From the IMG/VR virus record IMGVR_UViG_3300031992_000028: a DNA stretch of 64,000 bases. One strand, written 5' to 3'. Each line of letters starts with the position of its first letter. Positions within the stretch are counted from its first letter, which is position 1. Under the pieces are notes generated by a model, which saw nothing but the letters and a program-made list of their open reading frames with translations, did not search any database and was not told the DNA's origin. Of the stretch, positions 1-64,000 are shown in pieces. The position numbers and the translations under genes are program-made. The DNA comes from a virus. Its lineage: Duplodnaviria; Caudoviricetes.

Positions 1-401
1 ATTATGTATATTGGATTGGTGGAGAATTTACTAATCCAGGAAAAACTCAACCAAAATTACATGTTAAACCTCAATATGGTAAAACACCATTAAAAGTTGA
101 TTTTGGTAGCGGCCAAGGATATAATGATTGTATTTTATACTTTGCCTCAGAGCAAGCTGCAAAAAACTTTATGGGTATTGCTGAAGCAAATAAACCAAGT
201 AAAGTTAAATCACTACAAATTAAAAAAATTGGTGAAGACAAAAATGGTTATGTAGAAGTTTCTACTGAATTTGGTAATGCATATATTAAAGCTTCTAAAC
301 TTCATGAAGAAGTTGAAGAAGATTTAGAAAATAAAGAAGAAAAAACATATAATTATAAAGAAGTAGCCGAAGCTTATTTTGATGGCTTCTTTAAAGACTA
401 A
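1..401 (+). CDS. Hypothetical protein, 5'-truncated; paralog of 10765..11706 and of the N-terminal part of 11706..14042
   Basis: Frame open from position 3 to TAA at 399-401; shares F-x-x-E-Q-x-A-x-x-F and V-x-T-x-x-G-x-A-Y motifs with the two downstream paralogs. Confidence 0.7.
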   Translation, partial: YVYWIGGEFTNPGKTQPKLHVKPQYGKTPLKVDFGSGQGYNDCILYFASEQAAKNFMGIAEANKPSKVKSLQIKKIGEDKNGYVEVSTEFGNAYIKASKLHEEVEEDLENKEEKTYNYKEVAEAYFDGFFKD

Positions 402-412
402 GGAGAGATAAA

Positions 413-1900
413 ATGAAAATTAAGAAATTAGTTGAATCCAAATTAATTGAAGCTGAAGATAAGATTGATACTACCGGTTCAGTTCAAGAAATTGCTGATG
501 ATATTCAAGATCAAGTTGATGATTTAACTGACGGTAAGCTTGAAATTTCTGATGAAGCTGCTGAAAAAGCTGCCGAAGATACTGCTGCTGTTGCAGATGT
601 TGTAAATGCAGACGAAGCAGCTATTGTCATTACTGAAGAAGACTGAAGTGATATTAAAATTACAAACAGACTTTATAGAACATTAGATAGAGCTTTTGCT
701 GCTGCTAAAACAAATATGGGCAAGCACAAAGTTAAAGCTGGTGCTAATGTCCTTGTCGAAGGTCTTCCAGGTTCAGGTAAAACTGCTATTGTTGAAGCTT
801 GGTGTAAAATGAATGGTTTAACACTTGTTGCTTTAAATGCTACTGACCCAAAGATTGAGTCTGCTATTAATGGTATTCCATTACGTAATATGTCTGTTGA
901 AGATTCTACAGAGCTTACATATGCTTATGCAGTTGATGATAGAAATTTAGGTTTATTAATTAATGAAAAACACCCAGATTTAGCAGGAAAGTGTGTTTTA
1001 TTCGTTGATGAATTAAACAGACAAAAAACAGAGCAATTAAGACGTCCATTTATGTCTCTCTTTAATGAAAAAAGAAATGCAAGTGGTTCATTAGATTTCT
1101 CTAAAAACTTATTATTCTGTGTTGTTGCTATCAACCCATTTGGCAATGACTTCCATGATAAGGGTGTTAGTGAACTAAATGCTGCTGAAAAAGACAGATT
1201 TGCTCGTCAACAGTATTCATTTGACTCCAATATTACTGATGCTATTCAATTCTGGACTTGGTATAGATCAAAAGAATTGTTAGATTTAGGAATTATTGCT
1301 CCAGGTAGTGCTGCATCTACAAATCATGGTGGTTGGGTTGGCCCAACAAAAAAATTAGATGAAGATGATTTAATGCATGCTAAGAGAATCCTCAAAGGTG
1401 CTGCATTAGCTCTTTATATTTTAAATAATGTTCAAAAATCAAGAGAAACTGAAGTATTTACTACAAGAAGAGATACCGATAGAGCTTATAGAAGTGGTGA
1501 TTATCGCTATACTACAAGCAGAGGTTTATTTGATGGTATTTTTGATAGCACATTTGGCGATGATAAATCACCAGTTAAAGACTTCTTAGACTGGGTTGAT
1601 GAAGAAAGCCATTACACACCAGAAAAAGTTAGAATGTTCCATGACATTTTAGATTCTTATATTATGGACGTTAAAGGATTATTTGCTGCTTATAACCTTG
1701 ACAAAACTCCAAAAGAAATTAAAGCAGAATTAGATGGAACTGCTGCTCCAAAAGCTGACACTACTGTTGATAACACTGATGATGAAATCGAAGATGATGA
1801 TGTCATGTTTGGTGCTGATGATATCAGTGGAGTTAGCAAAGCAAGCACAGATGATTTAAGTAAAGATGATGTTGATTCTATCATGGGTAGCTGGTTATAA
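413..1900 (+). CDS. MoxR-like AAA+ ATPase (495 aa, one TGA=Trp at 644-646)
   Basis: 413..646 and 716..1900 are in frame across TGA; Walker A GLPGSGKT, Walker B LFVDELNR, sensor AINP, Arg finger DRF; GGAG RBS. Confidence 0.85.
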
Positions 1901-1903
1901 TCT

Positions 1904-6024: not shown

Positions 6025-6039
6025 TGCTAAATTATATGA
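6025..6039 (+). promoter_or_regulatory. Putative late promoter TGCTAAATTATATGA
   Basis: One of 10 intergenic copies of the motif. Confidence 0.7.
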
Positions 6040-6131
6040 TGTTCAAGCAAATGTTCTTATCCTTTCAGCAAATGCTTGAGCATCACTCAATAGAAAATAA
6101 CTTATTTTATATAAATTAAGGAGAACTCAGC

Positions 6132-9100
6132 ATGGCAAAAAAGATTGAAATTAATGAAAATTGGGAACCAGTTGAAGTAGAAGATTTAGATAATTTATTT
6201 ATCGTAGTTTTTAAACATGGCAGTTTTGACCAAGGTTATGTTGAAGCTTTTGATACAGATGATGTTTTAATGCAATCTGCTTATGATAGCTTAGCAAAAC
6301 AATATGATGACTGTGGTTGTGATGAGCTAACAAAAATTTACTTAATCAAAGTTCCAAATACTGAACAAACAGTAGATATGTGTAATACCGGCTTATTTAA
6401 TGGTAACTGCTGTGACCCACATGTTATTGAAGCTGCTAGAGACTTATTCAACAGAGCTGACTGTGAACATCTTTCTTGTTGGGAAGGCTGTGGTTTAACT
6501 GAAGCTAAAAAGAAGAAAAAACCATATTCATCTGCTTATTGTGGCTTTACTGATCCAGCCTTAAATATTAAGCATTTCAATAAATGCATGGGAACTGGTG
6601 GACTTCAAAACCCAGACCCAGCACATTTAGTTGTTGGCGATACTTTACCAAATGCACCAGTTGCAGATGCTGGGGCTAGTGATGCTGGAGCTTCATCTGG
6701 CGGTGAAGGTGGAGCTATGGGTGAAAGCCTAAATGAAGCTAAAGAAGAAAATTTAGAAGATAAAATTAGATCTGTCATTGCCCATAAAGAAACAGATGAT
6801 TGGCATGATGGAAAAGCTTATCTTTTTGAAATCAGTGATGAGTCTAAAAATTCTAATAATGGTGATATTGATCCATTTTGGGTTGAAAAGTTTGATGATG
6901 ATGAAGTTGACTTCAGTAAATTAAAAGTATATGATAGAACTCCGGAAGAAAAAGAAGATGGCAAATATATTGCTACCTTTATGATCTCTGGTGGTAAAAA
7001 TGGCTCTGGTGAGTGAACTGATTATTTAGGTCAACTTGCAAATGCTTTTAAAGCACTCAAAGAAAAGACAGGTGCTGAACCTTTACTTTATAAATTAGAC
7101 ACAGATATTTGTGATGATGTTTGGACAGGTTATGTTTTCTTATATGATCATGCAGATAATGTGAAAGAAAGCTTAAATGAAGATTTAATTGTTGTTGAAC
7201 CATTTGAAGCTAAAGAAAAAATTGAGGAAATTAAGAAACAAATTGAAGAAGCTGAAGATTGAAAAGTCCGCAAAAACTTATTAACTTTAATGAATATTTA
7301 TTTATTCCAAACAATTTATGATGCAGATCATCAAGATGAGACTGATTGCAATATTAATAAAGATGAATGAGATGAATATTCTAAATGGAGTACTGAACAA
7401 GGTGAAAAACTTGTTTCTGAACACCCAGAATTAGAAGTTGAAGAACAAGAAAGAGATGCTAAAATTGAAGCTTCTGTCGAAGACCAAAGCTCTGAAGAGG
7501 TTGAACAAACAGAAAGCTTAACTGAAGCTCATTTAGATTATTCTACACAATTATCTAAAATGAAACAATTAGAGGCTGGCACTCGTGGATTTAATGCAGC
7601 ACAGGCTAGCTTAGAAAAGATTTTATATAATTATGATATTTGTATTTCTCATAACTTGCCAAAAGCTAGAAAGGCAATGGAAGATGCTTTAAGAATGCAT
7701 GGTTGGGACCAATATATTAAACCAACTAAAAAACAAGTTAAAATTACAGACTATGATTACATTTTAGACCCAGGCTATGTTAATACTGCCTCAGTTAATA
7801 CAGTTTTTGCAAACAAAGATAATGCACAACAACTTATTAAAGATTATGGAAGTAACTTAGATGACTTACTTGTTATTTTAGTTATTGCTCTTGGTTTAAA
7901 GGAAGCAACATTAGCTGGATTAATTAAAGACCATATTATTAATAATTTTACAGTTACATTAACTGAATTAAAAGACTTCTTAAATAAATATTTTTCAAGC
8001 CCAGCTACTATAGCAGCTTTAAATCAAACTCTTCATGATTGCAGAGAAAGCTTAGTAGAAGATACTGGTTATTCACATAAATTAATGGATAAATTTGAAG
8101 TCCCACCACAAATCAAATTATTAGATCAAAAACAAGTAGAAGATTTTATTAAACAATTAAGCCCAGAAGAATTATTTAGAGTTGGTTATGCTACGCCTTT
8201 ATATTTCTATTCAGAGCTTGATGATAAATTTGATTTAGTCAAAGCAACTGAAATGGAAGGTTATACTGGACTAGATTATCGTGATGCTGTCGCAGACCAA
8301 TCTGTTGCAGATCATGCTGCGCGTATTGCAAATGCACAAAGACAAATTAATACATATGCTGATGTTTTAGATAAAAATCAAGGGCATAAATTAAATAAGA
8401 GTGGTGAAAGATTTAGTACTACTTATAGAGCAACTAATAAACTTGCCCTAAATCCAGAAAAATCTAATGAATATATTGAGTATGAGTATGAGCTAGATGA
8501 TGATGGAAATCCAAAATTAGATGCTCAAGGAAAACCAATTATTAAAAAAGATGCTGCTGGTCAAAGAATTGTTAAGACAAAAATAGATATGAATAAAATC
8601 TTATTCTACCCAAGAGTTGGCTCACAGCCAAATGTCCATTATTATATAGATTTCCACAATGGTCAAGGCTTTAAACCAATTAGACGAGAAGTATTAGTTG
8701 ATACCTTATATAAATTTATTATGGAAGTAGAAAAAGCTAATATGCTGGGTGTTAGCAAAGCTGATTTAATGTGGCTACAAAAGAATGGCTATGGAAATGT
8801 TAGGAAAGATGCCGAAGGTGCTATTCAGGCTTTCTACAATGCCCATGGCAAAGACATTCCAATTTGAGCTTATAGAAAAGCAGAAGAAGCAGGTGTAACT
8901 CCAGAAGAATATTATAAAGAGCACCCATTTAGCACACGTTGGTCAATGTCAGACTTTAAAAAGAAAGCTAAGAATTTATTTGATGATGATGCTGCCACTA
9001 TTATGGCACAAGATGCTGAAACAGTTAGTGGTCAAGAATTAGCTGCTGTAAACGGTATGAATAGAGATGTTTCTGCTAAAGAAGATAAACCACAAGTCAG

Positions 9101-9596
9101 AGCTTTATATTCTAACCAAGTTTATTTCTTAGAGGGCAAACCAGGTAAATTTGGTAATATGCTTCATGAAGGCTTAGAAGAAGAAATTGAATTAGATGAA
9201 GCAAAACGTTATGTTAAACGTTATTATGTCAGACCATTAAATATTTTCTGTGGAAATAAAGAAGACATTATTCAAGCTTTAATTAGAGCTGGAGACCAAA
9301 ACTGCTCTGTTTATTCATTAAAGAATTTAACAAACCACGAAGATGTTCACTTATTACAACCAAGCGACATTATCTATTATTGGGACGACCATGTTTTATA
9401 TGATAAGAATCATGTTCAAGTTATGGACTACGATTTATTTGTTAAACATGAAGAAGACCGTAAAAAAGTTGGTAATGTTGATGCTATGACTGATGCGGCT
9501 TTTAGTGATTTATATGATGATAGAGCTACAGAAGATGATTTAAAAGATAAAGAAGTTATTGCTAACTATAAGGCATTAAATACAATTAGTAGATAG
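6132..9596 (+). CDS. Large modular (polyprotein-like) hypothetical protein, 1154 aa with TGA=Trp
   Basis: Fragments 6132, 7560 and 8946 join in frame via TGA; ends TAG; modules separated by LTEA, ESLNEA, ESLNED, ESLTEA, ESLVED, LDEA. Confidence 0.75.
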
Positions 9597-9607
9597 AGGG
9601 CAGTTGA

Positions 9608-10756
9608 ATGGAAAATTTTGAACAATATTTTAATGAAGATTTTGATTTAGAAGAGGCGTATGATTTTAAAGACCTTGCTGCAAAAAAAGCATTTAACTTT
9701 GAATGAAAGCCAAAATTTAATGAACTATTAGTCGGAAATAAGATTTGCTATGTAGTTGTTGAAAAAACTTCTACAAGTAGATTATTTTCAGTAGTTGAAA
9801 AAGTATTTGTTGGAGCCAATACTGGAGATATTTTTGTTAAAACTACAAAATTTGGCACAACACCATTAACAAGCTTTAAAGAATATGGTTATAAAAAACC
9901 TCACTTTGAAGCTGGTGATGAAGAAGCTACTAATGCATTATTAGCCTTAATTGCAGAATATAATGAAGCTTTCCATACTGCTGCAAAAACCTCTAATGGT
10001 GATACTCGTTCATTAGAATATTCAGAAGATAAGTTTGAAGACCAAGTTGGTGAAGGTCAAGACTTAAGTCAAAAAGCTTCAACTGATTTAAAAGACTGAT
10101 TAGCCCTTCATGTTACTAACGTTAAGTTTACTTTACCAGACTTAAACCTTATTCCAAATTCTGAAAAACGTGTCAAGGCTAAAAATGAATTAACCTTCAG
10201 TTTACTTGAAAAGCAATACCCTGGAATTACCTCTAATGCAAAGCATTTTGGGTGAGAAACAAAGACTTTGGACAATGCTATTTTTAGCTTTTGAGGCTTA
10301 ACTGGCTTTACATATTTTGATGTTCCATTTGAGGAATTCCCAGAAGAATTAAAAACACTAGTTATCGATGCTAAAGATAAAAGTTTAAAACGTGGACAAA
10401 CAAATGTTAGACCAAGCAAACCAACAGATAAAGTAATTAATAATATTTATTTTGCACATGCTATTATTGATATGTTTGATGGTGATTATACTTTCTGTGA
10501 TAGAAATATTGATGCCGAAGCAATTGCTGATAGTGATGATACATTTAAGCAAGATTTTGATAATATTAATGCTTATGGTGAAAAAGTTGAAAGTTTAAGA
10601 GAAGCTAAAGAAGAAATTTGCTGTATTTGTGGTGAACCAATAGAAGGCTATGGAAATAATCCTGAACCATACAAGCATGAAGGCAGATGTTGCGATGCTT
10701 GTAATGCTAAGTTTGTAATTCCAGCAAGATTAGCCGAATTAGATAACAAGGAATAA
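9608..10756 (+). CDS. Hypothetical protein with C-terminal Cys-rich Zn-finger module (382 aa with TGA=Trp)
   Basis: ATG 9608 in frame with the 10472 fragment; C-terminal CCICG...YGNNPEP...CCDACN after an ESLREA linker. Confidence 0.7.
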
Positions 10757-10764
10757 ATATAATT

Positions 10765-11706
10765 ATGGCTTTACCAGATAATTATGATATAAAACAATAT
10801 TTACCAACAGAGCAAGACTTTGCTGATGTTTTTGCTGCAAAACAAACTGGAAATTATTATAAGTTGCCTTATTACCCTCTTAGTAAAGATGAGCCATATT
10901 GTTACCCAACTATTAGAATTTACCTAGCTGCTATTCTATTAAAATGGGAAGAGCTTGGTAAGCAAATTGAAAATAACTTACTTGCAGGTAAATATGAATA
11001 TATTAATGGAACTAAACAATTAATTCCTTATTATACTCCTAAAGACCTAGCAATTATTAGATCATTTGCTGTTCAATATAAACAATATTATATTGGCGGT
11101 TATATGAAATATAAAGATGCTGGACAAGGTCTTGAATCTCCTGAAAAACTTACTCAGCAAGCTAGAGATGCCAGAAAAGGTGAAATTGAAGTAAAAATTA
11201 AAAATAGTAGTTCAGTGCTTCGTATTATTCCATATAGTATGAAGTATGGTAAAGATGACCCAAATAAAAGACAAGCTGGCGCAAAAATGCATATCTTTTT
11301 TGGAAAAGATTTAGGCGGGAAATATAATATTGTAATTAGAGGCAGTAATTTATATGGCTGTAATGAACACCCTACATATGATCAACCATATTTCTTGACT
11401 GAACAAGAAGCCAGAGATTTTATTGCTAACTTTAATCATAATAATATAAATACAAAAGTTACTATTGAAGATTGGCGCTTTGTAATTACGGATAGACCAA
11501 TGGACGATGGTTATGAAAGAGATGCTAATGGAAGTTACCTTATAGATGCTAAAGGTAACTATGTTAGAGCTTATTATATGCCAAGTCAAACTGAATTAAC
11601 AAAAGTTGATACTGTTTGTGGAATAGCCTATATGTTAAAAGAAGATAGAGATGCATATTGGGATAAAATCTATAAGGAAAGAGCAGAAAGAAAGGCTAAA
11701 AAATAA
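10765..11706 (+). CDS. Hypothetical protein (313 aa), member of a local paralog family
   Basis: Intact ORF; N- and C-terminal similarity to the 11706 gene. Confidence 0.75.
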   Translation: MALPDNYDIKQYLPTEQDFADVFAAKQTGNYYKLPYYPLSKDEPYCYPTIRIYLAAILLKWEELGKQIENNLLAGKYEYINGTKQLIPYYTPKDLAIIRSFAVQYKQYYIGGYMKYKDAGQGLESPEKLTQQARDARKGEIEVKIKNSSSVLRIIPYSMKYGKDDPNKRQAGAKMHIFFGKDLGGKYNIVIRGSNLYGCNEHPTYDQPYFLTEQEARDFIANFNHNNINTKVTIEDWRFVITDRPMDDGYERDANGSYLIDAKGNYVRAYYMPSQTELTKVDTVCGIAYMLKEDRDAYWDKIYKERAERKAKK

Positions 11707-14042
11707 TGACTGGCTTTGATATTAATCTATGCATTCCAACAGAAGAAGACTTTAGAGAAGTAGCCGAAGCAAAAGTTACTAATGATAAAAGTAGGGCCCT
11801 CGGTGGTTTTTCTTGTTTAGATGATACCAATGCTCCTTATTATTACCTATTAGTTCGTAGATTTTTTGCTTGTATGCTTTTAAAATGAACTGAAGCAGCA
11901 AAAGCCTGTGAAAATTTACTAATTAGCACCAAAGATAGCACTTATGATAAAGATGCAATTAAGCAGCTTATCGATTTAGTCAGAAGCTACAAAGATAAAT
12001 TTGTTGATTCTTATAATAAATATAAAGGGTCGCAAGATATTCAAGCACCTACTATAACTTTTGGTAAAAAGAAAAATCATGAAGTTACACCTACAGACCG
12101 AGTAAGTGCTCGTGCAGGAGAAATTAAAATCACAACACATGGCAAAACAACTAATTTTTACCGAATTGTTGCTTATGATATGCGTTATGGTGGCAGTGGT
12201 GCTAGACGTGGTATCGTATTTGGTAAAAAAGAAGGTAATTTATATACTATAAGAATTATTGGTAATGACCAAATGAAGGGCAACCAATTATATAATTCAG
12301 TATTTTTTAAATCAATAAATGAAGCTAAAATATTTATTGCAAATATTAATTATAATAATATAAATACTGCGTATGAGCTTGATAGCTTTAGATATTGTAT
12401 TTCAGACGAACCAATTAGCTCTCAGCATTATGATTGATCTGCCGGCAGCGGTGGTAAATGACTAACTGCTGAAGTAGATAATTTAAATGATGCAGTTCAA
12501 GTAAATACTATGTGTGGAAAAGCTTATATATTAAAACGAAGTGAATATTGCAAAGAAGCATTGGAGATAAAAAATATGAATGAAGCAGTTGAAAAACATG
12601 ACACATTAAACCCAAAACTTTTTGAAAATAATAAGTTAAAGGCTGAAGTAAGACAAAAAGCCCAAGATATTATTAATGAATTTTTAAAAATTTTAGCCGA
12701 AGAAGAAGTTAAAATTAATATTAGAGATGTTATCTTAACTGGCTCAAATGCAAGCTATAATTATACAAAAGACAGTGATGTTGATTTACATGTAATTGCT
12801 GAAACAAAATCACTTAATGACCAAGCTGACCTATATGCTAAGTTATATAGAGCTTATGGTAGAATTTTTGGAAATAAGTTTGAAATATCTTTCTATGGAA
12901 TTCCTGTTGAAATTTATGTAGAAACAGAAGCTGACCCAGTTGTAAGTAATGGTATTTACTCTGTTATGTATGATAAATGGGTAAAAGAGCCAAGTGCTGT
13001 TGCAATTCCTGAAATTGACCAAAAAGCTATTGATGCTGCATCTAAACCTTGAATTGATGAAGCTAAGGAATTAATTAAAGAAGTTGATGATAATATTGCA
13101 GATGGTGAAGAAAAAATTGATGATTATATTACAAGACTTTATGAGCTTCGTCAAAAGGGTATTTATAGCTCTGTTGGAAATGAATATTCTACTGAAAATT
13201 TAGTCTTTAAAGAAGTTAGAAATGCAGGTTTATTAGATAAGCTTAAAAAATTAAAAAATGTTATTATTTCTAAAAAATTATCTTTAGAAGAAGGCATTAA
13301 GTATTTAGATGATAACCATGAATTTAAAGACTATGGAACTGGCGATGCTCATGAAACAGATGTAATTGATATTCATAAAGCTAGCACATTCTCAACACAA
13401 GATTTATTAGATGGATCAGTTGATGCTGCTTATGATGGTGTTATTTATGAAATAGTTGAAATGACACCAACTCAATACTTTGAATTATGCTCTAAAATTC
13501 AGGGTATGAAACCAGATGAAATTATTGATTTTATTGGTGCTGATGAGAGACAACTTGCTCATATTAAAGATGTTATTCTAAAATATGGTAAGAAACTTCC
13601 ACTTCCTTACGTCAGTTTCAGTTCAGTTGATGAAGTTAGCGGCCAAGAAGGCAGACATAGAATGTATGCTCTTGGTGAAATGTTCGGTTGGGACGAAGAC
13701 TTCCCAGTTATGCTTATTCAAGATGCAAGCTCTAAGAAAACATTAGGTGAGCTCTTAAATGAATCTATTACAGAAGACTTCTATTTAGACGAAAAAACAA
13801 GACGTAATTATATTACAAAAATTACTCAATTAATTCACAATCAACCAGTTATTCAACAAAATGGTTTATTTGAAATTCATAATATTAAAGAAGATGAATA
13901 TCAAGCAGTTTTAAATGCTTTGAGACGTCAACCTTGAATTGATTATGTTCATGCTACAGCAGGCAAATTTGATTTTAACAAAATATCTTATCAAGGTATG
14001 CCAAGTAGATTATATACAATTTCTGGTAAAATTAAAATCTAA
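11706..14042 (+). CDS. Multidomain protein: paralog domain + Pol-beta-type nucleotidyltransferase + ParB/Srx-like domain + small C-terminal module (778 aa with TGA=Trp; possible internal start at 12576)
   Basis: Fragments 11706, 12180, 12510 and 13461 in one frame to TAA 14040-14042; LTGSNASYNY..SDVDLH (GS, DxD), PVEIYVE, ENLVFKEVR; QEGRHR; GGAG plus ATG at 12576. Confidence 0.75.
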
Positions 14043-14055
14043 TTAAAAAACCAAT

Positions 14056-14090
14056 TAAAATAAAGCCCTAAATTGGGCTTTTTATTTTAT
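14056..14090 (+). terminator. Intrinsic terminator
   Basis: AAAGCCC-TAAATT-GGGCTTT followed by T-rich tract. Confidence 0.75.
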
Positions 14091-14106
14091 TTTTATTAAA
14101 TCAATT

Positions 14107-14122
14107 TGCTAAATTATACTGA
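14107..14122 (+). promoter_or_regulatory. Putative late promoter TGCTAAATTATACTGA
   Basis: Recurrent intergenic motif following a terminator. Confidence 0.65.
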
Positions 14123-14148
14123 GAAATGCTTCAATAAGGAGGCCACAT

Positions 14149-16026: not shown

Positions 16027-16064
16027 TATAATATTAAAAATATTGTATTATATATTGTATAATT

Positions 16065-18167: not shown

Positions 18168-18185
18168 ATTAAAGGAGAATAAATT

Positions 18186-47838: not shown

Positions 47839-47882
47839 TATAAAATAAATTTAATAAATATTTAATAAAAAAAGATAAAAAT

Positions 47883-47897
47883 TGCTAAATTATATGA
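47883..47897 (+). promoter_or_regulatory. Putative late promoter TGCTAAATTATATGA
   Basis: Recurrent motif. Confidence 0.7.
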
Positions 47898-47912
47898 TTG
47901 TGAGGTTAAATA

Positions 47913-48305
47913 ATGCGCTCAATTAAATTCCCTAATATGTTTAATACAAACAGCACAAATGTTTGGAAAGAAAATGAGTATAATGAAGCTACCACTCAAA
48001 ATACTATTTTAGTTTTGCATAGTGAACGTGGTGAGCTTTTTTCTGATCCATATTTTGGTTTATTAATTAAGCATTATATGTTTGACCAAAATAATTATGT
48101 GCTTCGTGACGCTATTGCTGATATGGTTTATAACCAGCTAGCAATATTTATTCCACAAGTTCATGTTGAGCGCAAAGATATTAAAATTGTTCAAAACAAA
48201 CAAAAAGGTTTATTATACTGCGCTTTCCACGGCACCAATCAAATTGACTTTCAAACTAACGTATATAATTTAATCTTATTTGAAAATACTGAAGCAATAC
48301 AATAA
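47913..48305 (+). CDS. Baseplate wedge subunit, gp25-like
   Basis: SERGELFSDPYFG..I..YMFDQ; FIPQV. Confidence 0.8.
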   Translation: MRSIKFPNMFNTNSTNVWKENEYNEATTQNTILVLHSERGELFSDPYFGLLIKHYMFDQNNYVLRDAIADMVYNQLAIFIPQVHVERKDIKIVQNKQKGLLYCAFHGTNQIDFQTNVYNLILFENTEAIQ

Positions 48306-48319
48306 GGAGACTTTGATAA

Positions 48320-51300: not shown

Positions 51301-52966
51301 ATATTTTTACTACACAGATGAGAATAAATTAGAAATGTCTTATTTTGGTAGCGGCACAAATATTAAAGTTTCTGGTATTACCTTAGTTAAATCAGATAAT
51401 AGTGTTGGAGTAACTGCTGAAGATATTTTAGATAACGGTATTACTGCAATACCTTGGGTAACTGCACCAATTGATAAAGATACTAGAACAATTATTATTG
51501 CTGAATATCAATATATTACAATTGCAGAAGGTGATGCTATTATTGAAGCTAGCTTAGCAGTTTCAGGAGAAACTGATATTGGAGATAGCTGAGTTAAAGT
51601 TTCCTCTGCAAGATATCGATTAGCTGGTGAAGATCACGATTTACCACAAATTGCTGCTGGTGATGATGCAAAATGAGAAATTCATAGTAAATTATTAATA
51701 AATGCTGGGCCAGCTCAAACACAGACTCTTAAGCAGCCACGTGATCAAATTGATATTACATACAATAACGGAAGCACTGAAACACTTGCACCTACAAGTG
51801 CTGACAAACCGCTATCATTTAAGACAAACCTACCTTGCCAAATTGTAAATGATACTATAGATATTAATAGTAATTTAAACTTATCTATTAAGCTTTTTGC
51901 TGAAAAGTTACCACAAATTCATTATTATGATAAAACAAGTCAGTCATGAAAAGATGCACTTATTCCGTTAAATAATTTTGGTAAAAAATGAACAAAAATA
52001 AATTATAATAGTATTGATGCAATTAAAGCGCAAACAAAGGAATATGATGCTACAATTGACCTTGCTACAACTATTGATACAAATCAATTTGGCATACTTA
52101 TGTTTTATTATATAAAAAATATGGACAGCCAAGAAAAAGAAGGAACAACCACTGATAAAAATGGCTACCTTGAGTTTGAAAGTGCTGAAACAGGTAATAA
52201 TAGCCCTGCTATTTATAACTATCGTGGCAATAGTGGAGGAAGCAATGCAGACAAGTGGTGAGACAATTTAGCAGAAGATCCTACTGCATGTGAAGCCTCT
52301 CCAACTGAGGACACTACTGTTGATGAAGAAAAAACTTATTATACTAAATCTGAAACGAGCGGTGGAACTCCTGGCTATCTTGTAGATGCTAATGGCTATA
52401 GCTATACTGCTGTTGAAAGTCCAACTGGAAATCCAACAGAAGCAGGTTATTATGAGGTTACAAAGGTTGGTCATAATAATACCCAATACTTCTTAAAGCC
52501 TGGTATTAACTGTGTTAGAATTCCAAGTAATTATACAAAAATTATTATTCACAAAAATACCAATCAAACCACTGCTGGTGATGTTGTAGTAGTAAGTCAG
52601 CTAGATGTTGTAAATTGCTCTACAAATAACCCTGATGGTGTTAATTATGAGCTACTTGGCTTACGCTGTGATAAAGCAGCTGGTAGCGACCCTACTGTAG
52701 ACCCTGCAATAACTGATGTAGCAGATTTATTAGAGCTTTTAAGAAATTTAGATGAAGAGCATATATTCTACTATAACTGCCAAATTGACAATAGTAGTGC
52801 TATTGATCTTAATACAACTAAACGAGATGGAAAATATATTGAAACATTAAAATCACCAATTGCATGATTTGATTATAATAATGTTAATAATAAATTTGTC
52901 ATTTCTGAAATAGATGCAGATTATCTTGAACACGGTATTACATTAACAAGGTCATCAAGACTATAA
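48320..52966 (+). CDS. Large baseplate wedge protein, gp6/baseplate J-like (1548 aa with TGA=Trp)
   Basis: NESDPGIVLL..EAFMPSATQQES...LVGY; TLVTCRDY; one frame to TAA 52964-52966. Confidence 0.8.
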
Positions 52967-52980
52967 TTAAGGGGAAAAGT

Positions 52981-53793
52981 ATGATTAAATTAACTGAACT
53001 AACTCCTAATATTTATAATGATGCCTCAAGAGACTTCCAATTTATTGGGCATCTTTATGATACTGTTTTGAACTATATAAAAACAAACAGTGATTTAATT
53101 TACAATATTCCATTATCTGACAATAGTGACACTAGATTAGTTGAATTAATGGCAACTACTCTTGGGTTTAAATCTAGACATAAATACAATGTTAAACAAT
53201 TGGTTGCTCTTTGTAGTGTATTCTCAACTATTATTAGACAAAAAGGAACCCTAAATGCAATTGATACTGCAGGCAAAGCATTATTGACCGCTGAAGGTAT
53301 TACTGAAGATATTTTCGTAGAGCTCGACCCAGAAGATAGGTCTAACTTAACTATTAGCATCTTTGTTCCACAAGAGTTAACTGATCTTAATTTATTAAAA
53401 GATTTACTTCTTTATGTTTTACCTGCCGGCTGTAGTTGTAATATTGTTAGAGAATTAAGACAAGCTACTACTGCAGAAGTAAAAATTGGCATTACACAAA
53501 AAGCAAATATTTATCAAAGTGATAATAGCATTTGAAGAGAAGGAGACGATTTCAATGCTATTTATGCTGGAGATATTTCAATTGTGCCAGAAATGAATCC
53601 TAATCTTACTGATGCATATGCAAAAGGCACACCAGGTATCTTTATTAATAGTACAATAGTTAGACCAGGTGAACGTGTAACATCACAAGCTGGCACATTA
53701 TCACTACAAAATACAGATAATCAAAATACAGACAATCAAAATACTGAAGAAGATATCACTGAACCTACAGATGAAAATAATGGAGGCAATTAA
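52981..53793 (+). CDS. Baseplate wedge protein (tail protein I/gp7-like), 270 aa
   Basis: SRDFQFI, LMATTLGF, RQKGTL.AI, VLPAG; one TGA at 53533-53535. Confidence 0.65.
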
Positions 53794-53794
53794 A

Positions 53795-54490
53795 ATGAGT
53801 AAAAAAGTCACCAAAAAAGTTGAAGAAGAAATAACTGAAACTACTACAGAGCAAGAAAAAAAGCCTAAAAATAATATAAATATTGGGTATGCTGGTACAG
53901 TTAGTATTTCAGTAGTAGATGGTAATAATAATACAATTATAACTAAAAAGCACCATAATGAAGGCAGCAAACGCTTATTTAAATATATTTGTGAGTGCCT
54001 TGCTGCTAATACCTCTGTTATTGCCACAAATCAGCCAACCAAAGTATGTTTAATTGATATTTTAAATAATACTCCTGTTGGAGACATTAAAAATAGTTTT
54101 AATGAGGGTAATGCAGGATATTCTAGCCAATTTAGAGCTATCACTAACCCAATTGCTATCTATGGCCCAATTATACCAGATAAAGTAGAATGTAACGCTG
54201 CTTCCCAGCTAACTCCGCATAAAGCTACTCTACATTTTAGAATTCCTTATACCTATATTACTGGCACCGAATTCTGCGGTCTTGTTTTATTACCTGCCAG
54301 CAAAGAAGATACTAATAACTTAACTACTGACTGATATGCATACTATCTTTTAACACAAATAGAGCTTGACAGCGAGGTCTGAACGCCAATTCCTATTTCT
54401 GGTCAACAAAATTATAACTTGATTATTGACTGGGAGCTTTCTGTTGCAAATAATACTAGCAGCAATATAGATAGTAATATCAATAATTAA
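53795..54490 (+). CDS. Hypothetical baseplate/tail protein (231 aa with TGA=Trp)
   Basis: GGAGG RBS; read-through to TAA 54488-54490; C-terminal LIIDWEL. Confidence 0.6.
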
Positions 54491-54503
54491 TGGAGGATAG
54501 TTT

Positions 54504-55862
54504 ATGGCTGCTGTAACATGATTAACAAAAAATAATAGAAATTATATATCAAGTAGTAATATTTTCATTTACCCAAGTGCCTACAGGGACCCAACAATTG
54601 ACTTTAAGGCAAGAGTAAGTCTTGAAGAAAATTTTGTTGTACAAAGCCGTCAATTAAATAGAGACTACATTATAAAATGGGCTGGCACTGACCTTACCTG
54701 TATTCTTGGTGGCTACTTAATTAAAATAAATGGTGTTTCAGCTGCTGATGTCCAAGATAAACGTTGATTAAACATTAAAGTTAATTTGACTGGGCTGGCT
54801 GGTGTTGAAAATACTTATGTAATTAAAAACTGAGACTGAGAGCTCCCTGACGGCGTTATTTTAGACCGAACAGAAACTCCTAAATCTACTCCATCTTATT
54901 TTATTGGAGCTGTTTTTACAGCAACCAGAGAAAAAGGCGCATCTTTTGCAATAGATTTACTTAATGACCAATCTTATTACCCAGTTGGTCATGGACAAGT
55001 TTTAAACGCTAAAGCAAATACACCAACTAATATACTATCTAATCTAATTGATCATAATGAATATTCTATTAGTAATTTGTATCAAAATAGCTCTAACTTA
55101 TGGGTTCCAAATAATCTAAATACTAGCCCAGGTTACTTATTTGCTTTTGGTAAAGAAAATATAATCAATAGCACAGCAGGCGAATCTGATACAACTGCTA
55201 ACTACACATTTATTTTTGGAGCCAATAATAGCACAACTAAAAAATATACTACTTTAATTGGCAATAATTTAAAAAATGAAACTGCTGATTATAAAGTAGC
55301 ACTTGGTAAGTTTAATAATGATACTACTAACAATATTTTTGAAATTGGCTATGGTGGAGATGATGAAACTCGAAATAATTTATTTGAAGTAAGTAATTCT
55401 GGTGATATAGCTATTTATAATACAGCTGTTATTAATGGAGAGGGTTTAACTGACGTTGTCTCTGAAAATGGCCTAGAAATTACATATGGCAGGCTATATG
55501 TAAAAAATGGCCAAGGTTATTTTGGTGCAGCACTTACTGTTAATGAGGGAGGCCTCATAGTTAATGCTGGTGGTGCAGATATTACCGGCACAACTACTAT
55601 TGATGCTACTGGTGAAAATCAGGTAGTCTCTATTTCTGGCACAACTGGAATTACTGGTAATACTACAGTAACAGGCAATTTAACTATAGAGAGTGATAGT
55701 GACAATACTGGCTTTTTATCAGTTGCAAAAACTGCACACATCAAAGGTATAGTCTCTATTGATGCAAATAGATTAAAATTATATAAATCTGATTCTGCTA
55801 CATATCAGACTACTTTTGAATATGATACAGACCATCATTGCTTAAAAATTAAAGTTAGCTAA
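54504..55862 (+). CDS. Tail fibre/spike protein 1 (452 aa with TGA=Trp)
   Basis: N-terminus shared with the 60363 fibre (YPSAYR vs FPCAYR); beta-repeat G/T-rich body; GGAGG RBS. Confidence 0.65.
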
Positions 55863-55876
55863 AAGGCAAATAAATA

Positions 55877-58800
55877 ATGAGTTTAATATTTTGATTTCCA
55901 TTAAATAATAATATAAATAATCAGGCAACTGGTAATTTTTCTGTTGTAACAAAATCAGCCCCAGAATATGCCAATGGTAAGGTCACCTACAATGCATTTA
56001 ATGGAAAAGGAAATAACTATATTAGAATAAATAATCCACTTATTGGATTAGACTCTTGAACAATTGCATTTTGGTTTAATAAAAATAGTTCTGCAACTTG
56101 AAGCGACCTTATTTCATTTACAGGTGATGCACAAAGACTTGAATATACTATAGCCGGGCTATATTGATATAATGGGGCAGCTGGTGTAAGTGCAGACCAC
56201 CCATTTAGAGCACCAAGAGAGACATTTGGTAAATTTTGGCCAAGTGCTAGTATTATTACTAATATTACTAATAATAAATGGTACCATATTACACTAGTTT
56301 TTAATAATAATACAAGTAAAATTTATCTTCATAATGAAAATGGTGAATTAATTACTGCGCAAACAAAAGAAAATACTAAAAAATTTATTCATGAAACAGA
56401 AACTACTGATCCTAACTTTGTTGATAAAATTTATTTTAATTGTAGAGTTATTCCAAGCGCCTCTTATACATGAAGCACCGGTAATTATACAGCTTCTATA
56501 TTAAATGATATTCGTATTTATGATGAAGCATTAAGTGAATATGAAATTAAAGAATTAAGTAAAGGTTTGTGTGTTCATTATTCTTTTGATGAATATTTAA
56601 CCACAACAACATTGCTCCCAAAATATATTAATGTTAATACATATCTAGGTAATGATTTTACAATTGATTCAAATGGAGACCTTATCAATCAAAATACTGA
56701 TACAGCTAGCACATTTGCGATTCAATTTCAAGCACTTAATAGTGCTGGTGATCATCGTAACTTATCTGGTGGGTTAGCACTAACAGAAACAGATGAAGAT
56801 TACAGCTTTAAATTTACTATTCCAACAGACTGCATTAAAATGAGAATAAAGCATAATGGGGAAAATAGTGACTTAAACATTATTAGTCCAAATATGCCAG
56901 TAACTGGAAATAAAAGCTATGCAGTTTCATTCAAGCTTATAAATAATAATCCACAAAGCGTAAATGGAATTCGTATAAGAAATTTTAAAATAGTAGAATT
57001 ACCAGATATTTATGATGCAAGTGGTTATAAACATAATGCCATTGTAAAATTAAATACAAATGCTGAGACTGCTATCTACACACATGCACGCCCTGAGCTT
57101 GATTCTATAACAAATGCACCTGTTTGTGTTGAAGATATCTCTCCTTATATTTTTAAAAATACTTTAAAACTAGCAGATTTTAAGACAGACACTTTTTGTT
57201 ACTTAAAATTATCAATTGTTCCATCTTTTATTAATTCTGGTACTGTAAGTATTTGATATAAGGCTACGACTCCTAATCAATCATTTATTTTAACAGACTG
57301 TAATAATAATGCCGGCTGGCTCTTTGCAAGCTCAAATCTTGGCAGTAGTAGAAATAGTGGAGCTACATATACAAAATTATATATTGATGGTAAATTAATT
57401 GAAAATGATACTAGTACTGACCAAACTCCAACAGATACAAATTGGCATCACTATTGTGTAACTGGTGTAGATTTAACTAGCTGCACATCTTTACAACTTT
57501 CAGCACGAGACAGCGCTTGAACCTATAAAGGAAATATTGCAGACTATAGAATTTATAGTACGGCATTGTCTACAGATGATGTTTTAGATTTATATAATAA
57601 TTCTATTATAATAGATAATAATCAACAAGTATTTTTAACTAATATTACTGAAACATCAGATTTATCTACTCAACTTCAAATCAGTAAAAAACACATAAAA
57701 ACACCGGAAATTATTGAAGGTAGACCAGAGAATTATGATAATCTATATAGACCGGCTGAATATATAGAAGCTACCGGAACACAATATATAAAAACAGATG
57801 TTATTGGTCAAGCTATTTGAGAATATGATATAGAATATGATCCAAATCATATTACACAAAGACAATTAATGGGACACGGTGGGTCAGGCGGTGAGTACTG
57901 AGGAATCACAAATGGAAAATGGGGTAAAGCTACTTGACAAACTTCTGATGTTCCAGTTAATAGAGAAAGAGTTATTTATAGAGTTAATAACTATTCTACT
58001 GCTATTCAAAATGGTGGGAATGTATATGTAAATGATACATATATTTATAATAATGGCTATGATGCTGTATCAGAACAAAAACAAGCAAATATTTTTAATA
58101 TAGGTAATAGCTTTTATAATTATTGTAAATTATATGGCTGTAAAGTTTATACTATAGACAATACATTAATAAGAAACTTTATCCCAGTAATTAGAATATT
58201 TGATAATAAACCAGGACTATATGATTTAATTGGACATAAATTTTATTTTAATCAAGGCACTGGTGAATTTCTAGCTGATGGCATTCCGACTGAATATAGC
58301 CATGTTGAATGCATTGAAAGCGATGGAAATCAATATATTGATACTGGCTATGGCAATGGCAATGGTTTTTATGCTGAAATAGATTTTAAACTAAAAGTAC
58401 TCCCACCTGAAATTACCGGTGGATCTTATGGTTATGTTATAGGCTGTCACAATCTCACAGACCCATATGGAAGAAATGGGTTCCAACCATATTACCTAGA
58501 CAGTGAGGGTTTTACTTGGCAGCTTGGACACGGCGATAGCTATAATCGTGCTGGTGTTCCACAAGCTAATGTCAGATATTTAGCAAAGGTTAATACTAAA
58601 AATACTGATGGTTATTTAAAAATAAATGATGCGCTTATTTTAACTGATTCTGACTCAGCAACACTATCATCAAGTAATATTTGGTTATTCACAGACCAAT
58701 ATGACTGACAATCTCGTGTTGCACAACGTATGTTTCTATATGGCTGTAAAATTTATAATATCGATGAAACAACATTAGTAAGAGACCTTGTGCCTGTTGT

Positions 58801-59551
58801 TAGACTTTATGATAATAAGCCTGGTTTATATGATAGAGTATATAATGTATTTTATACAAATCAAGGAACAGGTGACTTTACTTATTTAGATAATAGACTA
58901 AATTATATAACTGCAGAATATATTGAAAGCGACGGAAATCAATATATTGATACTGGTATTACCTGAGAAGCAAATAAAGCATTAGCATATGAGCTAACTC
59001 AACAATTTACTATAGCAACTGAAGATGTAGGATCTGGGCACCACAGATGCTTATTTGGAGAAACTGCTTCAGGAAACTTTAAAGTTGGAACAGCAGAAAC
59101 ATCTACTAAGGGAACTGAGACAGGCCACATATGTAAGGCAGTTTGGCCGGCAGCTGCAACAGTGACATCTCCAGCAACAGTTTCATATTATTTTGATAAT
59201 ATCTTAATTGGCGAAAATTATTATGAAGATGGCCATTATGATACTAGACCATATTTTCTATTTGCATGTCCAAGTTGGTCTGGAGATAATACTGGAAGAC
59301 CGCCTGCTTATTTTAGTACCACTAGAGTTTATGGGGCAAAGTTTTATAGAGACAGTACATTAGTTAGAGACTTTGTTCCAGTAATTAGAAAAATAGATAA
59401 TAAACCTGGCCTTTACGATAATATAGAGCACAAATTTTATGTTAATCAAGGCACGGGCAACTTTACTGCAATACCTAAAAAAGCATTGCCACTGGAAGAA
59501 ATACAAATATATGAAAATAAAACTTTAGTAAATAAGATTGGAGAAATGTAA
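55877..59551 (+). CDS. LamG/concanavalin-like receptor-binding protein with three C-terminal repeats (1224 aa with TGA=Trp)
   Basis: WTIAFWF, WYHI, NDIRIYDEALS and WHHY..DYRIYSTALS; 3x EYIE..G.QYI.T...RDFVPV.R..DNKPGLYD...FY.NQGTG.F. Confidence 0.75.
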
Positions 59552-59552
59552 T

Positions 59553-60224
59553 ATGGCACAACTAAATTCAACAATTATTAATGGAAATCTAGCAGTTGCT
59601 GAAGATGTAGCTATTGGTGGAAATCTTGTACTTGATAACAACTTAAGAGTCCCAGGAACAACAACAGTAACTGATTCTATTTTAATTTCTAAGACACTTG
59701 ATGCAGCAATCAATATTGGAATTGCTGTTAACCAAGATAATGACAATTACTTTTTACGTTGTAAAAATGGCGGGGTTGGAAAATTTTCAGTTGGAACTAC
59801 TGGGAATTTTTGAGCTGCTGGTACTGGCTCAATAAGTGGTAATATTGTAGTTACTGGAAATGCCAAAATTGGTGGAAGTAGTGGTGCAACTTTAAGCTAT
59901 GACTCATCAAAATCAAATCTTGAATCAAATAAGCAAATTAAGGCTCCATCATTTTATGCCACATCAGATATGCGCTTAAAAGAAAATATCATTGTGTATA
60001 AGCCAGAAAAATCAATCTTAGACTTGCCTATTTATAAATTTGATTTTATTGATGGACCTAAAAATAAAATTGGCTGTCTAGCTCAAGACTTACAAGAAAT
60101 ATGCCCAGAAATTGTGCAGGAAAGCAGTGATGGGTATCTAAGTATTGAAGAAAGCAAAATTGTATATTTACTGTTAGATGAAGTCAAAAAATTAAAAGCT
60201 GAGGTTGAAGCACTTAAAAAATAA
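59553..60224 (+). CDS. Tail fibre-type protein with C-terminal intramolecular chaperone (peptidase S74) domain, 223 aa
   Basis: ATSDMRLKENI, IGCLAQDLQEICPEIV; one TGA at 59811-59813. Confidence 0.8.
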
Positions 60225-60238
60225 TTAAAAATAAATAT

Positions 60239-60275
60239 AAAAAAGCTGTTTAAAATTAGACAGCTTTTTATTTTT
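60239..60275 (+). terminator. Intrinsic terminator
   Basis: AAAAAGCTGT...ACAGCTTTTT. Confidence 0.75.
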
Positions 60276-60300
60276 AACTTTTTGTTTTATAATAGTTATT

Positions 60301-60315
60301 TGCTAAATTATATGA
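60301..60315 (+). promoter_or_regulatory. Putative late promoter TGCTAAATTATATGA
   Basis: Recurrent motif. Confidence 0.7.
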
Positions 60316-60362
60316 GTTTTGAATTTCATCTCACCAATAATCTATAAAGGAGAGTAGTATAT

Positions 60363-62780
60363 ATGGCTATTACAGACTTTTATCAAAAACCAGGAACTAA
60401 CTATTATTTTATAAAAAGTGAGCTAGTTTCTGTTTTTCCTTGTGCTTATAGAGGCTCATTTAGTCAAGCTGGCACATCTACAACAACATTAAAAATATTT
60501 GATCCAGAAAGTAAGTTAAACACAGAAAAAAGCTTTTTAAAACTTTCAAATCTTAAACATAAAAGCTCTTATGTACTTAGTTGGCCAAAAAATGGTACTA
60601 CTGTTGGTGAGCTAGAATTTGTTATTGGTGGCTATTATTTTACTATTAAAAATCTTACAGAGATTCCAGAAGTCAGTGGAAACCCAATTAAATATATTGG
60701 AATTAGAGTTAAATCAGAAACACTTGTAGATACAACTCAAACAGAAGTGCTATCTAATCTTTTGAATGATGCTCAGCTTGCTGCTGGTTTAGATATTAGC
60801 CCAAATAATAATAACAATTATTTTTTCTCAGGCTTAGCTTTTAGTACTGCGCCTTTTGACGATACATATATTTCACTTGAACTTCCAGCAACCCCAGACG
60901 ACTTAAAAAATCACCAAGGAAGATTTGGCTTAAAATATAGTGATATTCAATCTAAAAAGAAAACTGAATGTATTTCTGGAAGCCTTGTTAATGGTGAAGA
61001 TAATGAGAATAATGAAGATATTCATACTATTGCCAGCTTATATAAAGATACAAATAATATAATTCAAAAAAATATAGCAAGCACTGAAAATGCTATTGCT
61101 CTTGGTATAAACACAACAGCTTCTGGTAAAGCATCTTATGCTGAAGGCATTGAGACTACTGCTGTAAGTGAAGCTTCACATGCTGAGGGCAAAGAAACAT
61201 GAGCAGGTAATAGTGCTGATTTAAATAATAGCAAATATGCTCATGCTGAAGGCTCATTAACCATTGCATCTGGAGCTGGGTCACATGCTGAAGGTGTTGG
61301 CGGAGCAATGTTTGATAATACAACTGTTAGTGGAGCTTATGGTATTGCTGCCCACTCAGAAGGGGCTCAAACACGTGCAGAAGGTAAAGCTGCTCATTCA
61401 GAGGGTCAAGAAACTGTTGCACACGGTAACTATTCTCATGCTGAAGGTCATCTAAATAGAGCAAATGGAGACTCTTCTCATAGTGAAGGAGAAAGTACCT
61501 TAGCTGATGGCAACAATGCCCACTCTGAGGGCCAATATACAAAAGCAAATGGTAAAGCAAGTCATGCTGAAGGTGGTGCAGAGGCTGTCTCATCTGGCGA
61601 CCAAACATATACAATAGCTAACTCTGATTTCTCACACGCTGAAGGTAAAGAAACAAGTGCAACTGGAGTTGGTTCACATACAGAAGGTATTTCTACGACT
61701 ACTAACGCACAAGCTGCACATGCTGAAGGTTACTGAACAACTGCTTCTAATGGAGCAGCTCATGCTGAAGGCGGCAGTACAATTGCTTCTGGCAGCGAGT
61801 CTCACGCTGAAGGAAGTGCCACAACTGCTGTTGGAGACCTTGGAGCACATGCTGAAGGTTTTATGACGATTGCCTTGGGGCAAGCTTCACATGCTGAAGG
61901 CTCTGGTCTAAGTACTACTAATGCTGTTACTTTTGGCACTATAGTTGGGACAATTGATGACGGAAATTCGCCTTATACATATAACTATACTGGAAATTTA
62001 GATACTAATGTTAAGGTTGGTTGTATCTTAGTTGTTACTATTGATAATAAAAAATATTATTTAAAAGTTACTAATATTGATTCTAGTAATTCACAAATTA
62101 GCTTTATTTCTTTAACCTCGCATTTTCCGGCAGGCACATTACAAAATGCTGCTCTAATGCGTGGAATCGCAGCAGGTAATAATTCACATGCAGAGGGCAA
62201 AAATGTAACTGCTTCTGGTGACGAGTCTCACGCTGAAGGTAAAAGCACTAAAGCTTCTGGTGAAGCTTCTCATGCTGAGGGCAATGAAACAACTGCTTCT
62301 GGCCAATATTCTCATACCGAAGGTTGAAGAACAACTGCCTCTGGCGGATATGGTTCTCATGCTGAAGGTGATACTACAACTGCTTCTGGAGGGGCTTCAC
62401 ATACTGAAGGTGATCACACGACAGCTTCTGGTGAAAGCTCTCATGCTGAAGGCTTCAATACAACTGCTTCTGGCTGGTATTCTCATGCTGAAGGCTATGG
62501 AACTACTGCTGAGAGCGCTTACCAACATGTTTTTGGACGACATAATATTGTAGACAATACTGGCGGTGGTCCAAGCTCTGGTAGCTATGTTGAAATTGTT
62601 GGTAATGGTTCATCTAGCAATGCTCCATCAAATGCACGTACTTTAGATTGGTCTGGTAATGAAACATTAGCCGGAGACTTATCTTTTAGAAAAGGTAATA
62701 CAAACGATACCACTAAATCAAAAGCTACTATTCACTATGACGATACTTATAAAATAATGCAATTTATTTTTGAAGACTAA
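60363..62780 (+). CDS. Tail fibre protein 2 with YadA-head-like 14-aa SHAEG repeats (805 aa with TGA=Trp)
   Basis: More than 20 T-x-A-x-G-x-x-S-H-A-E-G repeats; C-terminal IVGNG..SNARTLDWSGN; ends TAA 62778-62780. Confidence 0.8.
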
Positions 62781-62807
62781 TTATATAAAAAAGGAAAGGC
62801 AATTTTA

Positions 62808-64000
62808 ATGGCTTTATTACATAGATGAACATTAGATAATACGCTAAAAGACAGCGCTGGAAAGCTTAATCTAAAAAATTGGCACTCTGCTAATTTTGAT
62901 ACTGGTAAAACAACTCGTTATGCCGGTAAGACCACTAAAGGAACTACTGATAATACAGAAAAGAATTTCTACGCTTCTGTTGATTTTACCACTGTTACAA
63001 CTAGTTTATCAGTAAGTCTTTGAGCCTATATTGATAATACCGATACTACTAATATTTATAGTAGTCCATTTTTAATTGGCGGTTGAAATGCATGAAGCTG
63101 AACAGATGTTAATTTTGGCATAGTATATAAACACTCCGAAAATAAATTAATCTTTAATATTGGGAATGGTTCACAGTATACTTGTACTGAGCTATCTACT
63201 ACGCTAAAAAGACGCTGCTGATATCATATTGCTGCTGTCTATAATTATGGTAAAAGTATTGCCTTATATGTAAATGGACAAAAAGCTGAAGAAAAACCAA
63301 CTACAGTTATTCCTAGTTTAACTGGATATTATTGTGTAGGCGGTAATAATGCAACACAATATGCTTTTAGTGGGCTAATAAATGATGTTAGATTTTATAA
63401 TCATGCATTAACTGATAATGAAATTAAAGAATTAGCACAGGGGTCAGTTTTACATTATAATTTTAATTTCGAGGAACTATATCAGCCAATAGAATATATT
63501 GAAAGCACTGGAACACAGTGAATTGATACAAACTACTACCCTAAGCTTAATAAAACAAAAGTAATTGCTGATGCTGAAAAAGCTATTAGTTTTTCTATTT
63601 TTGGGTCTGGCCAAGCAGATTTTACATTTACTGGTGGTGGCCAAGACGGTGAACACTATGAACACTATGCATATTATAACAATAAGGCTGCTTTATTTAC
63701 AGGAACAACCTTTACTGATCGTCACTTATATATATTAGACAAAAACAAAGTATATATTGATGATGCTAATTATGGAGAAAGGACGTTAGCTACTGGAACC
63801 TGTAAAAATACTCTTGCTATTTTTGGTAGAAAAAATAATGGATCAGCTAATGATCTTGGACCACATAAGCTTTATGGTTTAAAAATTTATGAAGATGATA
63901 TACTTATTAAAGATTTTATCCCAGTTATTAGAAAATCAGACTTAAAACCTGGACTCTTTGATTTAGTTAATTATGAATTCTATACTAATAGGGGTTCAGG
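62808..64000 (+). CDS. LamG-domain receptor-binding protein 2, 3'-truncated; paralog of 55877..59551
   Basis: WYHIAAVY..LYVNG..INDVRFYNHAL; EYIESTGTQWIDT..DFIPVIRKSD.KPGLFD; needs TGA=Trp. Confidence 0.75.

What the first reader, a model, noticed from the sequence alone, without database searches (positions are those of the whole stretch)
1..64000. TGA is recoded to Trp throughout this region (genetic code 4)
Seen: dozens of ORF fragments join in frame only across TGA, including terminase, portal, sheath, tape measure and baseplate, and no reconstructed gene stops at TGA. Internal evidence for Trp: paralogs read LLK-W(TGG)-EE at about 10944 versus LLK-(TGA)-TE at 11886; the LysM wedge reads F-W(TGG)-(TGA)-IIA at the conserved WW; the pyruvyl transferase reads GSDQI-(TGA). 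Known: TGA-recoded phages have been described, some infecting standard-code hosts. Inference: either the host is a code-4 low-GC bacterium or the phage supplies its own UGA decoding.
Basis: partly seen in the sequence, partly recalled or inferred. Interest (0 to 1): 0.75.

Follow-up and report, generated by a model that had tools for sequence, protein, structure and literature searches.

The report
Phage reads TGA stop as tryptophan
This large gut phage writes tryptophan with the stop codon TGA in its late (virion) genes but not in its early genes, so it most likely infects a standard-code bacterium and switches the code during infection with its own tRNA, a strategy already described for such phages.

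Summary
Confirmed. In the window, 31 of 44 genes hold 117 in-frame TGA, none within 27 codons of a gene end. At conserved sites relatives have Trp (38 of 42), never Gly. The window is the virion module of a T4-like myophage; its 99.8-kb contig is about 46% complete, and relatives are 200-237 kb. Recoding is not genome-wide: 36 genes behind sigma70-type promoters have 69 TGG and no internal TGA, while late genes have 136. This favours a standard-code host with phage-supplied decoding over a code-4 host. The contig holds no tRNA, TrpRS or RF1. All four fully recoded complete relatives carry tRNA-Trp(UCA), three carry TrpRS, and one has the tRNA-TrpRS-RF1-lysin module described for Jade phages (Borges 2021). 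Standard-code relatives lack these. Verdict: a new member of a known kind. Extras lie in relatives only: an intron-split and a two-anticodon-arm suppressor tRNA (both already noted by this scan on other DNA), and one TGA shared by all eight recoded relatives in a possible late regulator.

The parts
171..64000 (+). Late (virion morphogenesis) module of a T4-like myophage: 44 genes, 117 in-frame TGA read as Trp, 106 TGG, stops TAA/TAG only
10765..14042 (+). Paralogous pair (10765-11706 and 11706-14042); TGG at 10945 aligns with TGA at 11886
16065..18167 (+). Terminase large subunit, 7 TGA and 5 TGG; TGA at 16350, 16623 and 17589 sit in Trp columns; 16350 is TGA in 82% of recoded relatives
18186..20150 (+). 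Portal, 1 TGA (18498) and 5 TGG
20879..24085 (+). Prohead protease and major capsid protein, 0 TGA and 8 TGG; the four capsid Trp columns are never TGA in recoded relatives (19-29 loci each)
26205..29035 (+). FrhB/pyruvyl-transferase fusion (11 TGA, 1 TGG) and GT8 glycosyltransferase (6 TGA, 1 TGG)
37158..39442 (+). Tail sheath (1 TGA, 4 TGG) and tail tube (0 TGA, 3 TGG; tube label from the gp19 hit on the syntenic gene of L030)
45035..45364 (+). Baseplate wedge subunit with TGG-TGA at adjacent Trp positions (TGA at 45248)
55877..64000 (+). Laminin-G tail-fibre-like genes; the last runs past the window (1850 codons, 29 TGA, 7 TGG)
6025..60310 (+). Eight intergenic copies of the presumed late promoter motif TGCTAAATT at 6025, 14107, 26165, 29077, 37086, 39537, 47883, 60301 (17 plus-strand against 2 minus-strand copies in the contig); function inferred

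Best explanation
The window is the virion module of a roughly 220-kb T4-like myophage, probably from ruminant gut, that infects a standard-code low-GC Bacillota host. Early and replication genes avoid TGA and are made by the host machinery. The phage then expresses its own tRNA-Trp(UCA), charged by a phage TrpRS or by the host's, and this tRNA competes with host RF2 at UGA so that late genes are read through with Trp. Decoding is efficient but not free, so the most abundant virion proteins keep TGG. Shown: TGA = Trp, the split of TGA use by gene class, and the decoding genes in relatives. Inferred: the host and its code, the tRNA in the missing half of this genome, and the timing.
For: Trp assignment. 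Early block beyond the window: 31 genes, 2 TGA (both near gene ends) to 57 TGG, against 117:106 in the window, Fisher p 1e-13; the A:G ending ratio of other codon pairs is similar in both sets. By promoter class: sigma70-type 0 internal TGA to 69 TGG, late 136 to 101. Recoded relatives also have TGA-free blocks, including the replication module. Relatives with 70-87% capsid identity use code 11 or 4, more distant ones code 15. tRNA-Trp(UCA) is in G003, G009, G012 and, intron-split, G007; only Trp(CCA) was found in code-11 G008, G010, G011. TrpRS is in G007, G009, G012 only among 41 records; RF1 is in G007. High-copy virion genes have 2 TGA to 20 TGG against 137 to 92 for the rest, p 4e-6.
Against: No tRNA, TrpRS or RF1 in this contig, nor a tRNA in the fragments of its closest relatives. 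The host is not identified. Promoter classes rest on motifs, not on transcripts. G006 has only sparse TGA and no UCA tRNA was found in it. A 29-TGA gene needs very efficient read-through, and how RF2 is overcome is not explained.
Confidence: 0.85

Rival explanations
1. The host is a code-4 bacterium (Mycoplasmatales-like) and the phage simply uses the host's code; TGA avoidance in early genes reflects expression bias.
For: No decoding gene in the contig. Low GC (32%) and no CGG codon, which recalls Mollicutes. The nearest named TrpRS to those of relatives is from Anaeroplasma sp. at 62%.
Against: Zero internal TGA in 36 sigma70-type genes, in a genome where other codon pairs end in A 70-95% of the time. 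Relatives carry their own UCA tRNA, TrpRS and RF1, and differ in code. The Anaeroplasma locus examined has 37 TGG and no in-frame TGA, so it fits code 11.
Confidence: 0.07
2. TGA is read as Trp without a phage UCA tRNA, for example by a modified or near-cognate tRNA-Trp(CCA) together with inhibition of RF2 by a phage protein.
For: No UCA tRNA in the contig.
Against: All four fully recoded complete relatives have a UCA tRNA once split forms are counted. The 57-aa protein was not found in recoded G003 or G007, so it does not track recoding.
Confidence: 0.05
3. TGA codes for Gly (code 25), Sec or Ser, or the genes are decayed pseudogenes.
For: ARAGORN labels the UCA tRNAs of relatives 'SeC', and one has a long extra arm.
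Against: 38 of 42 conserved TGA columns are Trp, none Gly or Cys, one Ser. No in-frame TAA or TAG interrupts homologous stretches. Carriers of the long-arm tRNA also read TGA mostly as Trp.
Confidence: 0.02

Closest known systems
Jade clade of TGA-recoded gut phages (Borges et al., bioRxiv 10.1101/2021.08.26.457843)
   Same: TGA read as Trp in structural genes, standard code in early genes; large genome; Firmicutes host. Clade-mate G007 (capsid 76%, terminase 53% identical to the window's) has suppressor tRNA, TrpRS and RF1 directly upstream of a TGA-rich lysin and holin-like genes, the 'code change module' of that paper.
   Different: The module is not in this contig. No Jade reference sequence could be compared. 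G009 and G012 have TrpRS without RF1, and G003 has neither, so the module varies within the group.
Agate clade of recoded phages (same paper)
   Same: [quoted passage not shown]
   Different: Agate genomes are about 127-154 kb and had no TrpRS/RF1 module reported; complete relatives here are 200-237 kb.
Bacillus phages SP-15 and vB_BceM-HSE3 (closest cultured phages)
   Same: T4-like capsid gene, 30% identical over 93% of the length.
   Different: Distant only; nothing here indicates that they are recoded (their code was not tested).
Code 4 of Mycoplasma and Spiroplasma and their phages (own knowledge)
   Same: UGA read as Trp by a tRNA with a UCA anticodon.
   Different: There the reassignment is constitutive and genome-wide; here TGA is confined to late genes.

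Membership tests
TGA-to-Trp recoded phages of standard-code hosts | Coding density rises when TGA is read as sense | tested here: met
   31% to 83% for frames of 300 codons or more
TGA-to-Trp recoded phages of standard-code hosts | TGA aligns with Trp, not Gly | tested here: met
TGA-to-Trp recoded phages of standard-code hosts | Recoded codons in late genes, early genes readable in standard code | tested here: met
TGA-to-Trp recoded phages of standard-code hosts | Phage-encoded UGA suppressor tRNA | tested here: inconclusive
   Absent from the 46%-complete contig; present in the four fully recoded complete relatives
TGA-to-Trp recoded phages of standard-code hosts | Host uses code 11 | tested here: inconclusive
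   Indirect only: TGA-free early genes; relatives' TrpRS nearest named hit Anaeroplasma sp.. No spacer or other host link.
Jade clade | Falls in the Jade terminase clade | not testable with these tools
   No Jade reference sequence was available; the paper's supplements are not held
Jade clade | Suppressor tRNA, TrpRS and RF1 upstream of the lysis cassette | tested here: inconclusive
   Not in this fragment; present in clade-mate G007 and in L278-L281
Jade clade | Genome of about 200 kb | tested here: met
   CheckV puts 99.8 kb at 46% complete; complete relatives are 201-237 kb
Code 25 (TGA = Gly) phages | TGA aligns with Gly and occurs in about 90% of genes | tested here: not met

The most novel reading that the evidence does not exclude
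The code switch also gates late transcription. A single-copy 272-275-aa gene next to the gp46/gp47-like nuclease genes, in the otherwise almost TGA-free replication module, keeps one invariant Trp as TGA in all eight recoded relatives that hold it and as TGG in both code-11 relatives. If it is the late sigma factor that reads TGCTAAATT, late genes could be neither transcribed nor translated until the suppressor tRNA works. The gene is not in this contig, has no Pfam or PHROG hit, and its sigma identity rests on position and a by-eye resemblance only.
Probability: 0.22. Interest if true: 0.7.

Novelty: new member of a known kind. Interest (0 to 1): 0.35.

Why it matters
The finding itself adds one more TGA-recoded gut phage, and its genes must be called with table 4. 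It is a clean case of the open question of how such phages time the code change: TGA use splits almost perfectly by promoter class, and the capsid gene avoids TGA across the clade, which suggests that suppression stays imperfect. The relatives show why suppressor tRNAs were found in only 35% of TGA-recoded genomes: some are split by introns or are misshapen. The shared TGA in a possible late regulator would, if real, give a single codon to test as the switch.

Tried and rejected
TAG as the sense codon: no gain in coverage. Gly, Sec or Ser at TGA, and other reassignments such as AGG=Met: rejected. tRNA, RF1 and TrpRS in the own contig: none by ARAGORN with and without introns, Rfam, Pfam or a relaxed T-arm scan. 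The base after TGA does not differ from that after other NGA codons (p 0.22), so there is no context signal. Terminase TGA 16350 as an invariant gate: TGA in 9 of 9 genomes but in only 82% of the wider recoded set. The 57-aa ArfA-like peptide as the RF2 antagonist: it does not track recoding; no complex was folded, since such factors bind RF2 only on the ribosome. Host by RF1 scan of GTDB: only 34-52% hits, uninformative. The closest relative (ENA scaffold, L030/L416) is not searchable by handle; I stopped walking along it to stay within the stated 40-kb holding limit, so its tRNA is unseen. The CGG-free group was picked after seeing the counts and its members are kin, so it is a lead only.

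Full report
Observation. The window is 32% GC and coded on the plus strand. Frames of 300 codons or more cover 31% of it under code 11, 83% when TGA is sense and 33% when TAG is sense. With table 4 it resolves into 44 tightly packed genes ending in TAA (40) or TAG (4). 31 contain TGA; there are 117 TGA and 106 TGG inside the window, and no TGA lies closer than 27 codons to a gene end.

Which residue. I aligned the genes, with TGA masked, to the DNA of related loci so that their codons were visible. At 52 TGA sites relatives had TGG in 53% of cells, TGA 20%, Phe 9% and Tyr 5%, much like the TGG control. With more genomes, 38 of 42 conserved TGA columns were Trp and none Gly; every other codon in use read as standard, and CGG was never used.

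What the DNA is. The contig is a linear IMG/VR record of 99,842 bases, 46% complete by CheckV. Terminase, T4-type portal, prohead protease, capsid, sheath, hub and wedge genes hit PHROGs. The closest cultured phages are Bacillus SP-15 and HSE3 at 30% capsid identity. More than 120 related viral loci were found, with complete genomes of 201-237 kb. That they are mostly from ruminant gut I infer from record names and memory, not from a tool. The group mixes codes 4, 11 and 15. The closest relative is an ENA scaffold (capsid 87%); support for the wider subgroup is weak.

Host code or phage decoding. Beyond the window, 31 small genes hold 57 TGG and 2 TGA, both near gene ends where stop or Trp hardly matters (p 1e-13 against the window). 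Earlier notes on this genome suggested sorting by promoter motif. Doing so gave 0 internal TGA and 69 TGG for 36 genes behind sigma70-type promoters, and 136 and 101 for 45 genes behind TGCTAAATT. Replication modules of the nearest relatives are nearly TGA-free as well. A code-4 host would give no reason for this. Within the late set, the five high-copy virion genes have 2 TGA to 20 TGG against 137 to 92, and capsid Trp columns are never TGA in recoded relatives. I read this as incomplete suppression in competition with RF2 (inference).

Machinery. The contig has no tRNA, RF1 or TrpRS. G009 and G012 have an ordinary tRNA-Trp(UCA) beside a TrpRS. G007 has the tRNA, TrpRS, RF1, then a lysin with 9 TGA and holin-like genes, which matches the Jade code-change module of Borges et al.. 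Its tRNA is split between U34 and C35 by a 290-nt intron; removing it gives a cloverleaf that ARAGORN calls Trp(UCA), and a 196-nt sister intron hits the Rfam group I model at E 4e-6, below the gathering score. G003 has no TrpRS and a UCA tRNA with an extra arm. That arm is a second Trp(CCA) anticodon stem-loop: the pattern hits 98 viral stretches against 11 for a control, 60 distinct genes keep G73 (60) and U72 (59), and none of 45 carrier records has a TrpRS. Code-11 relatives show only Trp(CCA). Which form this phage uses is unknown. Both odd tRNA forms were noted before by this scan on other DNA; my paper searches found no description, but the library is incomplete.

Host. It is not identified. 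The nearest named TrpRS to those of relatives is from Anaeroplasma sp. (62%), whose locus fits code 11; the nearest named RF1 is from Intestinibacter (57%). Nine related records have 4 CGG where about 25 are expected, while G007, G008 and G011 use CGG freely. This points weakly to low-GC Bacilli, where CGG is known to be unstable (PMC8629427).

A possible gate. Of 87 conserved Trp columns, two are TGA in every recoded genome that holds them. One is in terminase and breaks down in a wider set. The other is residue 217 of a 272-275-aa gene in the replication module: TGA in 8 of 8 recoded relatives of 28-52% GC, TGG in both code-11 ones, while upstream neighbours have 12 TGA to 171 TGG. It follows gp47- and gp46-like genes, where T4-like phages keep the late sigma gp55 (own knowledge), but it has no family hit and lies outside this contig. 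Shared ancestry could explain part of the pattern.

Verdict. Interest 0.35.

Noticed in passing
L194:14676-15039 (G007:174676-175039); L281:717-988; L411: tRNA-Trp(UCA) split between U34 and C35 by a group I intron (290 or 196 nt); missed by ARAGORN and Rfam, or miscalled tRNA-Ala. It precedes TrpRS, RF1 and lysin. The scan noted such genes before on other DNA.
   Followed up: yes
L023:1498-1593 (-); L364; about 60 genes among L295-L501: Viral tRNA(UCA) with a second, complete Trp(CCA) anticodon arm; G73 in 60 of 60, U72 in 59 of 60; no TrpRS in 45 carrier records. It may let host TrpRS charge the tRNA. The scan noted this before on other DNA.
   Followed up: yes
L278:4280-4356; L279; L280: Non-canonical tRNA(UCA) (C1-G72, U73, bulged T-stem) beside TrpRS and RF1, not found by ARAGORN; possibly a dedicated tRNA/synthetase pair.
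   Followed up: partly
L240:3051-3869 (G001:23051-23869) and orthologues: 272-275-aa gene in the replication module with one Trp kept as TGA in all eight recoded relatives; candidate late sigma factor, identity untested.
   Followed up: partly
window 171-64000 and the whole contig: CGG is never used (0 in about 34,000 codons) and is nearly absent from eight related records (4 seen, about 25 expected in all nine), but is common in G007, G008 and G011. Not significant for this contig alone.
   Followed up: partly
   Followed up: partly
L002:2933-4324: 1.4-kb non-coding stretch with short repeats between the late and early blocks; no Rfam hit; possibly an origin or regulatory RNA region.
   Followed up: no
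window 26205-29035: FrhB/pyruvyl-transferase fusion and GT8 glycosyltransferase sit between capsid and neck genes and are among the most TGA-biased genes; perhaps for virion glycosylation.
   Followed up: partly
window 24185-26145: GIY-YIG endonuclease and N6-methyltransferase genes after the capsid gene have no TGA and follow a different (TGTATAAT) promoter motif.
   Followed up: no
L053 / G006: A 52%-GC relative with sparse in-frame TGA (4 of 61 conserved Trp columns) and no UCA tRNA found; it has an odd tRNA with a 6-nt anticodon loop at G006:121229-121304.
   Followed up: no
L033: A 3-kb contig from another dataset carries a capsid protein 100% identical over residues 1-437; many short capsid-only contigs of relatives suggest transcript assemblies (dataset type not verified).
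   Followed up: no
L096, L109, L110, L119, L129, L130: More distant relatives have in-frame TAG instead of TGA, so the lineage holds codes 11, 4 and 15.
   Followed up: no
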